DNA from: Nitrospirota bacterium
Lineage (GTDB): Bacteria; NPL-UPA2; JAGMAN01
Reading direction: 5' to 3'
Assembly (NCBI GenBank): GCA_030605915.1
Contig: JAUWHM010000129.1
Coordinates: forward strand, 1 to 24,916
DNA: 24,916 nt
Positions 300 to 1,532 of the stretch are shown here, in pieces. The notes under the pieces are model-generated. The model saw nothing but the letters and a program-made list of their open reading frames with translations, was not told the origin of the DNA and did not search any database. Position 1 is the stretch's first letter; every line of letters begins with the position of its first letter. The position numbers and the translations under genes were made by a program.

Positions 300-326
300 G
301 TAACACGAATATTCAGAAGGTACTAC
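300..326. promoter_or_regulatory. Candidate NikR operator 1 (GTAACAC-N13-GTACTAC)
   Basis: Pseudo-palindrome with outer GTA...TAC, 23 nt upstream of the hypA ATG; 23/27 identical to 1506-1532; adjacent to nikR. Confidence 0.75.
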
Positions 327-349
327 AAACCTCATTTGGGAGATAAAAC

Positions 350-598
350 ATGCATGAATTTGGAATTGCCAGGACTATCTTAGACAGTGTTCTTAAGAAA
401 GCTGAAGGACACGGAGCAAAAAAGATTAGCCGGGTTGCTTTAAAGGTCGGGCAACTAAAAATGGTTACTCCTTCCTCTCTCCAGAATGCCTTTGATTTGG
501 TTTCATCCGGAACAGCGGCTGAAGGAGCAAAATTAGAGGTGGAGGAGGTAGCTGGAGACGAATTGTCTGTCCAGAGCATTGAAGTAGATACAGAATGA
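350..598 (+). CDS. hypA: HypA/HybF-like nickel metallochaperone, short form lacking the zinc-binding domain
   Basis: N-terminal MHE, KISRVALKVG, SLQNAFDLVSSGTAAEGAKLEVE and C-terminal GDELSVQSIEV all match HypA. No Cys; 82 aa. Confidence 0.85.
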   Translation: MHEFGIARTILDSVLKKAEGHGAKKISRVALKVGQLKMVTPSSLQNAFDLVSSGTAAEGAKLEVEEVAGDELSVQSIEVDTE

Positions 599-1503
599 GA
601 ATACTAATTACAGGTGGAGCGGGTTTCATCGGTGCCAGTTTAGCGTTGGAAATTGAGAAGAGATTCCCATCGTGGCAGGTAACTGTCCTTGATGGTCTTT
701 CGTCAGGTCATATTAGAAATATAGGAGGGTTTAAGGGAGAATTGATTGAAGGAAGGGTGGAAGATGAAGAACTCATCAATAGTTTGAATGGGAAAAATTT
801 TGATTTCATACATCACCAGGCAGCAATTACCGATACCACAATAGATGATGAAGAAAGGATGATGAGGGTAAATATAGATGGTTTCAAGAATATTCTAAAT
901 CTGGCAAAGAGGCAAAACTCAAAAGTTATCTATGCATCATCAGCCGGAGTTTACGGCAATGGACTCATGCCGATGAAAGAATCTCAAAGACTGGTTCCTT
1001 TGAATGCTTATGCCTTATCCAAGGTCCGAGCAGATGAGCTGGCTCTTACCTTCGCTAAAGAGAACAAAGATATGAAAATAATAGGGCTTCGCTATTTCAA
1101 TGTCTATGGACCAGGAGAGGAGCATAAGGGAAAATCAGCCAGTATGATATGGCAACTGGCCGTGCAGATGAAGAAAGGCAGAAATCCGAGAATTTTTAAG
1201 TATGGGGAACAGGAAAGAGACTTTGTCTATGTGAAGGATGTAATAGAAGCTAACATTATGGCGATGGAGGCTAAGGAGAACTGCATAGTAAATATTGGCA
1301 CTGGTCAGATGACGAATTTTAACGGGATTATAGAAATCTTAAACGAAGTCTTGGGCACGCATTTAAAGCCGGAATACTTTGATAACCCTTATGATTTCTA
1401 TCAAAATCAGACCCAGGCAGATACTGCTTTAGCTGTTCATCTTTTGGGATTCAAGGCAAAGTTTAGCATTGAAGAGGGAATAAGGGACTATTTTTTCGTC
1501 TAA
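595..1503 (+). CDS. rfaD: ADP-L-glycero-D-manno-heptose 6-epimerase-like extended SDR
   Basis: TGGAGFIG, HQAAITDTT, YASSAGVYG, YALSK (YxxxK), RYFNVYGPGEEHKGKSAS, RDFVYVKD. Start overlaps the hypA stop (ATGA). Confidence 0.8.
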   Translation: MRILITGGAGFIGASLALEIEKRFPSWQVTVLDGLSSGHIRNIGGFKGELIEGRVEDEELINSLNGKNFDFIHHQAAITDTTIDDEERMMRVNIDGFKNILNLAKRQNSKVIYASSAGVYGNGLMPMKESQRLVPLNAYALSKVRADELALTFAKENKDMKIIGLRYFNVYGPGEEHKGKSASMIWQLAVQMKKGRNPRIFKYGEQERDFVYVKDVIEANIMAMEAKENCIVNIGTGQMTNFNGIIEILNEVLGTHLKPEYFDNPYDFYQNQTQADTALAVHLLGFKAKFSIEEGIRDYFFV

Positions 1504-1505
1504 GG

Positions 1506-1532
1506 GTAACACGAATGTTGAGAAGATATTAC
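1506..1532. promoter_or_regulatory. Candidate NikR operator 2 (GTAACAC-N13-ATATTAC)
   Basis: Near-copy of 300-326; starts 2 nt after the rfaD stop and heads the leader of the TonB-dependent receptor. Confidence 0.75.

What the first reader, a model, noticed from the sequence alone, without database searches (positions are those of the whole stretch)
300..1532. Two 27-bp candidate NikR operators that are more identical than an operator needs to be, bracketing hypA-rfaD
Seen: GTAACACGAATATTCAGAAGGTACTAC (300-326) and GTAACACGAATGTTGAGAAGATATTAC (1506-1532) match at 23/27, including 11/13 of the spacer; the second begins 2 nt after the rfaD stop. Established: NikR tetramers read two short half-sites far apart (E. 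coli GTATGA-N16-TCATAC has the same outer GTA/TAC), and spacers are usually poorly conserved. Inference: the site was duplicated, so hypA-rfaD may have been inserted between nikR and the receptor operon or be excisable by recombination, leaving two separately Ni-controlled units.
Basis: partly seen in the sequence, partly recalled or inferred. Interest (0 to 1): 0.68.

Follow-up and report, generated by a model that had tools for sequence, protein, structure and literature searches.

The report
Two NikR-type nickel operator boxes
Two near-identical 27-bp boxes really do bracket hypA-rfaD, but they look alike because both are copies of an information-rich nickel-regulator (NikR) operator/promoter module that other uncultured bacteria also place in front of nickel-uptake genes, not because of a recent duplication.

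Summary
Box 1 (300-326) and box 2 (1506-1532) match at 23/27 and at 11/13 in the spacer. Box 2 starts 2 nt after the rfaD stop. They are the only such sites in the 1.26-Mb MAG.

Both fit the Geobacter/Desulfovibrio-type NikR half-site GTAACAC at N13 spacing, with the left half flipped. I found the same oriented module in at least 12 other loci from several lineages. It is a T-tract ending 9-10 nt upstream, then GTARCAC, GAAWAT, an A-rich stretch and RTAnTAm. It usually sits just after nikR, and always sits in front of a nickel gene (ECF NikMQO-like, NicO, TonB-dependent receptors, short HypA).

The spacer carries information across genomes. Box 1 is closer to a box in a MAG labelled Latescibacteria (24/27) than to box 2.

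A sister species has nikR, a decayed box 1, hypA, rfaD, box 2 and the leader, but an ECF nickel transporter where the window has the receptor cluster. What was swapped is the transporter. The two-box layout is old and stable, and nothing supports excision.

An ancient insertion of hypA-rfaD into a nikR-box-transporter layout remains plausible. NikR binding itself is untested.

The parts
2..277 (+). 3' part of nikR (91 codons; the contig starts inside the gene)
   Evidence: Pfam NikR_C at E=1.5e-34. It is 97.8% identical to the full-length NikR of same-genus genome G002, which begins MNKTVRFGVSL and so has an Arg-Gly-Ser beta-strand.
284..290 (+). T-tract of module 1, ending 10 nt before box 1
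   Evidence: In 14 aligned modules the T-run ends at -9 or -10. T is present at -12 to -10 in 93-100% of them and is never present at -8.
300..326 (+). Box 1: candidate NikR operator (GTAACAC-N13-GTACTAC), 22 nt after the nikR stop and 23 nt before the hypA ATG
   Evidence: 30.7 bits with a matrix built from other genomes. An orthologous box lies between nikR and the short hypA in L119-L121. A decayed copy is present in G002/L087.
350..598 (+). Short HypA-like gene (82 aa, N-terminal Ni-binding part only)
   Evidence: Pfam HypA covers profile positions 1-69 of 112. Only 6 homologues were found among 5.8e9 proteins; the four whose contigs were read (P0121 within L087, P0122-P0124) all lie directly downstream of nikR.
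595..1503 (+). rfaD/hldD (ADP-glyceromanno-heptose 6-epimerase), start overlapping the hypA stop (ATGA)
   Evidence: TIGR02197 equivalog, 285.4 bits against a cut-off of 274.6. It is the only close copy in the MAG. In same-order genome G005 the orthologue sits at an unrelated locus.
1491..1496 (+). T-tract of module 2, lying inside the last rfaD codons (Tyr-Phe-Phe)
   Evidence: In the sister species L087 the box 2 T-tract is intergenic, about 70 nt after the rfaD stop.
1506..1532 (+). Box 2: candidate NikR operator (GTAACAC-N13-ATATTAC) heading the leader and receptor cluster
   Evidence: 25.4 bits. The orthologue GTAGCAC-N13-ATACTAC in L087 precedes the same leader.
1533..1813 (+). 281-nt leader between box 2 and the receptor start codon
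   Evidence: About 77% identical to the L087 leader, which precedes an ECF transporter instead. No Rfam family matches.
1814..16570 (+). Co-oriented cluster presumed to be under box 2: TonB-dependent receptor, ABC/ABC-2 pair, binding protein, FecCD, ATPase, CobN-like, ChlID-like, ExbB, ExbD, TonB
   Evidence: Pfam. In L087 this segment is replaced by DUF4198-CbiM-HI_1622_C-CbiQ-ATPase between the same flanks.

Best explanation
Box 1 and box 2 are two copies of a conserved, oriented regulatory module of about 45 bp. The module is a T-tract, 8-9 nt of unconserved sequence, GTARCAC, GAAWAT, an A-rich stretch and RTAnTAm. I read it as the operator through which Ni-loaded NikR of the Geobacter type (Arg-Gly-Ser beta-strand) controls nickel-acquisition genes.

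The two 7-mers sit two helical turns apart, as in every NikR operator. The left one is flipped relative to the palindromic GTGYTAY-N13-GTAAYAC box that overlaps or directly follows the -10 of the nikR promoters in these organisms.

Box 1 lies only 23 nt from the hypA start codon. Any dedicated promoter must therefore overlap the module. I infer that the T-tract and the GAAWAT segment act as promoter elements, or as DNA-shape elements, embedded in the operator. That would explain why the spacer, the T-tract and the orientation are all conserved. It would also explain why two sites read by the same NikR and RNA polymerase in one genome look nearly identical.

In the window, box 1 would make hypA-rfaD nickel-repressible. 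Box 2 would do the same for the receptor/ABC/CobN-like/TonB cluster, through a 281-nt leader.

What is shown: the sequence conservation, genomic context, orientation and spacing. What is inferred: NikR binding, repression and promoter overlap.
For: Half-sites and frame match the NikR signal GTGTTAC-N13/14-GTAACAC and the reversed GTAACAC-N13-GTGTTAC described for delta-proteobacteria (PMC545781).

The NikR of G002 (97.8% identical to the window's NikR) and all relatives examined carry R-F-G-V-S.

The same oriented box stands in front of nickel genes in other loci:
- G003, nikR then NicO.
- G008, nikR then a TonB-dependent receptor.
- G041, upstream of a receptor.
- L088 and L110, nikR then CbiM/CbiQ/ATPase.
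- Two contig sets sharing nikR-DUF4198-CbiM synteny (related NikRs are labelled Atribacteria by NCBI).
- L113 and L114, nikR then receptor plus ZnuA.
- L119-L121, nikR then the short hypA.

A matrix from non-window boxes has high information at spacer positions 8-13 and 16-19. It picks out only box 1 and box 2 in the MAG. The T-tract ends at -9/-10 in 14 of 14 modules.

Cross-genome pairs reach 24/27 (box 1 vs G041, and G003 vs G041).

Palindromic boxes overlap the -10 or lie just after it in TTGACA-N17 promoters of nikR.
Against: There is no binding or expression data, and no RNA runs hold this DNA.

No single sigma-70 register fits all modules. The best registers keep only the A and T invariants of a -10 and pair them with a poor T-only -35.

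In the Atribacteria-like contigs the box keeps a fixed distance to the nikR terminator but lies 150-700 nt from the transporter start. That fits a promoter-overlap model less well.

The right half-sites are weak: 5/7 to either orientation of the consensus.

Under the pooled motif model, 23/27 between two independent sites still has P of about 0.011. Some shared descent or conversion between box 1 and box 2 is therefore not excluded.
Confidence: 0.68

Rival explanations
1. One box is a recent in-situ copy of the other, made when hypA-rfaD was inserted between nikR and the receptor operon. The pair can recombine to excise the 1.2-kb segment.
For: 23/27 is above the 17.5/27 expected for two independent draws from the pooled motif (P about 0.011). 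Both window boxes share G at position 17, which no box of another lineage has; the orthologous box 1 of G002/L087 keeps it. Phylum relatives G003 and G008, and the closest NikRs (L113, L114; 77-81%), have nikR, one box, then a transporter, with no hypA. rfaD sits elsewhere in G005.
Against: Boxes of unrelated genomes are equally or more similar (24/27). The two-box layout is shared with a sister species at about 88% nucleotide identity, so it is old. There box 1 has decayed and the box 2 spacer differs at 7 of 13 positions. The short HypA is nikR-linked in every other lineage that has it, one of them with an orthologous box. What differs between the sister species is the transporter segment, not hypA-rfaD. 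The longest exact identity is 11 bp, which is short for homologous recombination (established knowledge, not tested here). No nikR-box-receptor deletion form was seen in 62 related receptor loci.
Confidence: 0.2
2. The module is a promoter, or the site of some other regulator, that merely co-occurs with nikR. NikR itself binds only the palindromic boxes.
For: The module is asymmetric and oriented, and it has a fixed T-tract and a GAAWAT segment with -10-like invariants. The right half-site is weak. Clear dyad symmetry is seen only in the nikR-promoter boxes.
Against: The left 7-mer is exactly the NikR half-site GTARCAC. The right 7-mer (GTAATAC in G041) equals the right half of the palindromic boxes, and the spacing is the same N13. 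The module is found only next to nikR or nickel-uptake genes. Reversed half-site arrangements have already been predicted for NikR.
Confidence: 0.1
3. The boxes are ends or att-like sites of a mobile cassette carrying hypA-rfaD.
For: They are direct repeats flanking a 1.2-kb two-gene segment.
Against: The segment contains no integrase, transposase or inverted ends. Single copies of the same box occur at nikR loci of many genomes without any cassette.
Confidence: 0.02

Closest known systems
Delta-proteobacterial NikR signal GTGTTAC-N13/14-GTAACAC (Geobacter, Desulfovibrio; Rodionov et al. 2004, PMC545781)
   Same: Same 7-mer, same N13 frame of 27 bp, location upstream of nickel transporters, and a cognate NikR with an Arg-Gly-Ser strand. 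The palindromic form is present at the nikR promoters of these very organisms.
   Different: In box 1 and box 2 the left 7-mer is flipped, so the two halves read like a direct repeat. The spacer and an upstream T-tract are conserved, and the site has a fixed orientation toward the regulated gene.
'Reversed' NikR signal GTAACAC-N13-GTGTTAC of Desulfotalea psychrophila and the D. vulgaris nikK site (same paper)
   Same: It starts with GTAACAC, uses N13 and lies upstream of nickel transport genes. Each window box matches it at 12/14 half-site positions.
   Different: There both halves are flipped. Here the right half is as close to GTAACAC as to GTGTTAC. That paper gives no spacer or flank information.
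E. coli NikR operator GTATGA-N16-TCATAC (PMC7055735)
   Same: Two short half-sites about two helical turns apart with outer GTA...TAC. The site represses nickel uptake.
   Different: A perfect palindrome with a different inner half-site, present as a single site in the genome. The spacer is not known to be sequence-specific (own knowledge).
Helicobacter pylori NikR regulon (own knowledge, not checked here)
   Same: NikR controls TonB-dependent outer-membrane receptors and exbB-exbD-tonB through several operators in one genome.
   Different: A different, AT-rich and poorly conserved operator (TATWATT-N11-AATWATA), and a different NikR beta-strand.

Membership tests
NikR operator (Geobacter/Desulfovibrio type) | Two 7-bp half-sites GTGTTAC/GTAACAC separated by 13-14 bp | tested here: met
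   Both boxes are 7-N13-7 with a perfect GTAACAC on the left. The right halves are GTACTAC and ATATTAC, 5/7 to GTGTTAC.
NikR operator (Geobacter/Desulfovibrio type) | Dyad symmetry of the two half-sites | tested here: inconclusive
   As inverted repeats the halves match at 5/7. As direct repeats they match at 5/7 (box 1) and 4/7 (box 2). Across 14 modules the right half (RTAnTAm) fits GTAAYAC about as well as GTGTTAC. The palindromic form occurs only at nikR promoters.
NikR operator (Geobacter/Desulfovibrio type) | Cognate NikR with the matching DNA-reading beta-strand encoded in the genome | tested here: met
   NikR_C is in the window, but the N-terminus is cut off. The G002 orthologue (97.8% identical) and L127 begin MNKTVRFGVSL. 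The second nikR on C140 has IRFGVSL.
NikR operator (Geobacter/Desulfovibrio type) | Position in the regulatory region of nickel uptake or utilisation genes, recurring across genomes | tested here: met
   The box is found upstream of NicO, CbiM/CbiQ ECF systems with DUF4198, TonB-dependent receptors and the short HypA in at least 12 loci.
NikR operator (Geobacter/Desulfovibrio type) | Ni-dependent binding of NikR and repression of the downstream promoter | not testable with these tools
   No RNA runs hold this DNA, and there are no binding data for this NikR lineage.
Recent segmental duplication / recombination substrate | The paralogous copies are more alike than orthologous or unrelated copies, and similarity extends into non-functional flanks | tested here: not met
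   Box 1 vs box 2 is 23/27, while box 1 vs G041 is 24/27. Flank similarity is limited to the T-tract, which all modules share. The longest exact match is 11 bp.

The most novel reading that the evidence does not exclude
The T-tract/GTARCAC/GAAWAT/A-tract/RTAnTAm module is an undescribed, asymmetric class of NikR operator conserved across several uncultured anaerobe phyla. One RHH domain would bind a flipped half-site, and the protein (or RNA polymerase) would read the spacer. It coexists with the palindromic autoregulatory operator at the other end of nikR, so the two operator types could set different nickel thresholds or cooperate across the nikR gene.
Probability: 0.3. Interest if true: 0.55.

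Novelty: new variant of a known kind. Interest (0 to 1): 0.38.

Why it matters
The spacer is conserved across phyla, so it cannot be used to date a duplication here.

The work also defines a testable extended operator/promoter module for the widespread Arg-Gly-Ser NikR subfamily. This subfamily is 72-83% identical across many uncultured lineages. NikR specificity rules come from very few experimentally studied proteins (own knowledge).

The module links NikR to a TonB-dependent receptor/CobN-like cluster whose substrate is unknown. That gives a nickel-related lead for the cluster.

It also documents a clean natural swap of two different nickel-uptake systems behind the same operator and leader.

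Tried and rejected
- Rfam found no family for the boxes or the leader, either at gathering thresholds on the whole window or at E<=10 on 1480-1840 and on L020.
- The sigma-70 and terminator scan found no plus-strand promoter or terminator at either box. A register analysis over 13 modules gave no consistent -35/-10.
- A whole-collection scan of 185,579 species genomes for the box with this spacer class gave only 3 hits: G003, G041, and one inside a Flavobacteriaceae contig that I take as chance.
- Close relatives of the receptor (60-78% identity; L020-L027) have no nikR, no hypA and no box upstream, so they could not serve as orthologous box 2 sites.
- The receptor is not found in the other 12 genomes of the phylum at E<=1e-60.
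- Only two cold-seep DNA runs hold a small share of this DNA.
- Rodionov 2006 and the NikR-DNA structure paper are not held in the library. Statements about them are marked as own knowledge.
- The mobile-cassette (att site) idea was rejected for lack of any recombinase and because single boxes occur widely.
- The uORF idea for the leader looks weak. The frame is not kept in L087 beyond the first 7-8 codons.

Full report
OBSERVATION

They match at 23/27 overall and at 11/13 in the spacer. The rfaD stop is at 1501-1503, so box 2 starts 2 nt after it. The similarity runs upstream into a T-run, giving 42 nt at 74% identity.

This is not chance. Random first-order Markov windows gave 0.05 pairs at >=23/27. 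The real window has 3, and the other two are a tonB-3' duplication and the feoB paralogues.

GENES

The window carries these genes:
- the last 91 codons of nikR (2-277);
- an 82-aa HypA that covers only the N-terminal 69 of 112 profile positions (350-598);
- an SDR epimerase whose start overlaps the hypA stop (595-1503);
- a TonB-dependent receptor (1814-4018), followed by an ABC/ABC-2 pair, a binding protein, FecCD, an ATPase, CobN-like, ChlID-like, ExbB, ExbD and TonB.

The epimerase passes the NCBIfam equivalog cut-off for ADP-glyceromanno-heptose 6-epimerase, so 'rfaD' is a fair name. It is the only close copy in the MAG. The MAG has a [NiFe]-hydrogenase large-subunit gene, and no CbiM was found.

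ARE THEY NikR BOXES?

Rodionov et al. 2004 (PMC545781) derived GTGTTAC-N13/14-GTAACAC as the NikR signal of Geobacter and Desulfovibrio. They also derived a 'reversed' GTAACAC-N13-GTGTTAC for Desulfotalea psychrophila and a D. vulgaris nikK site. Each window box matches the reversed form at 12/14 half-site positions.

The window's NikR lacks its N-terminus. The same-genus orthologue (97.8% identical over the shared part) starts MNKTVRFGVSL. That is the Arg-Gly-Ser strand which, from my own knowledge of the G. uraniireducens work, goes with this half-site.

Context is the strongest argument. I found the same box, in the same orientation, in front of nickel genes in many other loci:
- G003 (an NCBI 'Nitrospirota' MAG, same GTDB order): nikR, box, NicO.
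- G008 (same phylum): nikR, box, a TonB-dependent receptor.
- G041 ('Latescibacteria 4484_7'): box, then a receptor. That genome also has an R-G-S NikR.
- L088/L089 and L110: nikR, box, CbiM/CbiQ/ATPase.
- Two contig sets sharing nikR-DUF4198-CbiM synteny (related NikRs are labelled Atribacteria by NCBI): nikR, terminator, box, DUF4198-CbiM-CbiQ.
- L113 and L114: nikR, box, receptor plus ZnuA.
- L119-L121: nikR, box, short hypA.

In the same loci a palindromic GTGYTAY-N13-GTAAYAC box overlaps the -10 or lies just after it in a TTGACA-N17 promoter of nikR itself.

A weight matrix built only from boxes outside the window's genome scores box 1 at 30.7 bits and box 2 at 25.4 bits. The next best site in the MAG scores 14.3 bits and is the palindromic box at a nikR promoter on contig C140. 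NikR binding itself remains untested.

IS THE SPACER IDENTITY A DUPLICATION TRACE?

No. Aligning 14 modules shows that the 'spacer' carries information:
- G8 and A9 are invariant and A10 is nearly so (87%).
- T11, A12 and T13 occur at 68-87%.
- An A-rich run occupies positions 16-19.

Upstream, a T-tract ends 9 or 10 nt before the box in all 14 modules. T is present at -12 to -10 in 93-100% of them and is never present at -8. The 8-9 nt between the T-tract and the box are not conserved.

All modules point the same way relative to the downstream gene. The module is therefore asymmetric and about 45 bp long.

Box 1 matches the G041 box at 24/27, more than it matches box 2, and G003 matches G041 at 24/27. 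Under the pooled motif, two independent sites are expected to share 17.5/27 positions, and P(>=23) is about 0.011. For the spacer alone the expectation is 7.8/13 and P(>=11) is about 0.044. A small excess therefore remains. It could reflect lineage-specific preferences of one NikR and one RNA polymerase, or some shared descent. It is not diagnostic.

It is met across genomes and, in the window's own MAG, partly met by the only other NikR-type site. That site's spacer contains GA-TATTGAAAA, against GAATATTCAGAA in box 1.

EVOLUTION OF THE LOCUS

A sister species (L087; NikR 99% identical to G002) is collinear with the window over 1-1495 (88.8%) and 17629-20554 (88.5%). It has these elements in order:
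- nikR;
- a decayed box 1 (two transitions in the left half and a 3-nt deletion in the right half, with the spacer 13/13 intact);
- hypA and rfaD;
- a good box 2 (GTAGCAC-N13-ATACTAC);
- a leader about 77% identical to window 1533-1813;
- then DUF4198-CbiM-HI_1622_C-CbiQ-ATPase, where the window has the 16-kb receptor-to-TonB-plus-PIN segment.

So the two-box layout predates the split of these species. What has been exchanged is the uptake system behind box 2 and the leader.

Relative to L087, the window lacks about 70 nt between the rfaD stop and box 2. As a result the T-tract of box 2 in the window is the Tyr-Phe-Phe codons of rfaD.

Evidence for an ancient insertion:
- Phylum relatives G003 and G008 have nikR, one box and a transporter, with no hypA.
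- The closest NikRs (G008, L113, L114; 77-81% over the C-terminal domain) have the same layout.
- rfaD lies at an unrelated locus in same-order genome G005.

Evidence against reading hypA as a foreign passenger:
- The short HypA has only six homologues among 5.8 billion proteins.
- The four whose contigs I read all sit directly after a nikR.
- One lineage has an orthologous box between the two genes, and another has the genes abutting with no box.
- Those NikRs are only 60-62% identical to the window's.

The most economical reading is that hypA, later joined by rfaD, came to lie between nikR and the transporter in the ancestor of this genus. Each unit then kept or gained its own module.

Nothing supports present-day excision. 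The longest exact identity between the boxes is 11 bp. The sister species keeps the layout although its boxes have diverged. None of the 62 receptor-related metagenome loci has nikR or a box upstream.

MECHANISM

Shown: the conserved sequence, spacing, orientation and context.

Inferred: Ni-NikR binds the two 7-mers two helical turns apart and represses. Box 1 ends 23 nt before the hypA ATG, and the G008 and L119 boxes end about 20-50 nt before theirs. A dedicated promoter must therefore overlap the module. The GAAWAT segment keeps the A and T that correspond to -11 and -7 of a -10 hexamer in 12 of 13 modules. The T-tract falls where a -35 or UP-like element would.

No register gives a convincing sigma-70 promoter. 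In the Atribacteria-like contigs the box is tied to the nikR terminator rather than to the distant transporter start. The promoter-overlap explanation of the conserved spacer is therefore my preferred inference, not a result. Direct spacer or shape readout by NikR is the alternative.

Binding of a flipped half-site is physically plausible, because each RHH domain is a symmetric dimer (established knowledge of the fold; not tested here).

COMPARISON AND NOVELTY

The boxes belong with the known, computationally defined Geobacter/Desulfovibrio NikR signal and its reversed variant. What I could not find described is the oriented, half-flipped form with a conserved spacer and T-tract, recurring across several uncultured phyla. 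I rate it a new variant of a known kind, of moderate interest.

EARLIER NOTES OF THIS SCAN

Earlier notes had already flagged the cluster, the short HypA and the leader on this same window. They agree with what I see. I found no earlier notes on other DNA.

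Noticed in passing
window 1496-17628 vs L087 2193-5993: Between identical flanks (rfaD on the left, DtxR-FeoA/FeoB on the right, about 88% nucleotide identity), the window carries a 16-kb receptor/ABC/CobN-like/ChlID/ExbBD-TonB/PIN segment. A sister species carries a 3.5-kb ECF nickel transporter (DUF4198-CbiM-HI_1622_C-CbiQ-ATPase) in the same place. Box 2 and the leader are kept in both.
   Followed up: partly
window 1676-1813; L087 2372-2507; L020, L022, L024, L026 leaders: The leader contains a hairpin GGCAGC...GCTGCC. 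It recurs with compensatory changes (GGTAGC/GCTACC in L087, GGCGGC/GCCGCC in L026) upstream of receptor-CobN clusters that have no NikR box, and upstream of the ECF transporter in L087. No Rfam family matches. Beyond this hairpin the window/L087 leaders and the L020-group leaders differ, and the automatic alignment was poor.
   Followed up: partly
G000 contig C140:7100-7471: A second nikR 5' part lies at a contig end, behind TTGACA-N17-TAATAT and a palindromic box. It overlaps the window's nikR by 87 nt at only 72% identity. Yet it has the upstream synteny of the G002 nikR, whose 3' half is 97.8% identical to the window's. This is either a paralogue or a contig from a second related population in the bin.
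   Followed up: partly
L087 ~985-1010 and G002 (L003/L015): In the sister lineage box 1 has lost both half-sites (GTAGCGC, and a 3-nt deletion on the right) while its 13-nt spacer is unchanged. This may relieve nickel control of the housekeeping rfaD, which is translationally coupled to hypA.
   Followed up: no
window 350-598: The 82-aa HypA lacks the Zn-finger half. It has only six homologues (81-85 aa) among 5.8e9 proteins; the four whose contigs were read are immediately downstream of nikR. In the other lineages it is followed by a 120-aa protein with no Pfam hit rather than by rfaD.
   Followed up: partly
window 1480-1505 vs L087 2177-2274: About 70 nt present between the rfaD stop and box 2 in L087 are missing in the window. 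The breakpoints lie in two similar T-runs (ACTATTTTT / ACATTATTTTTT), which suggests a deletion between short repeats.
   Followed up: no
L029 1232-1524: A receptor 40% identical to the window's, also followed by a CobN-like gene, is preceded by a cobalamin riboswitch (40.4 bits). Related receptor/CobN clusters are therefore under different metal or cofactor controls.
   Followed up: no
window 16529/17394 and 19064/23324: These are the only other direct 27-mer pairs at >=23/27 in the window: the tonB 3'-end duplication around the PIN gene, and the two feoB paralogues.
   Followed up: no
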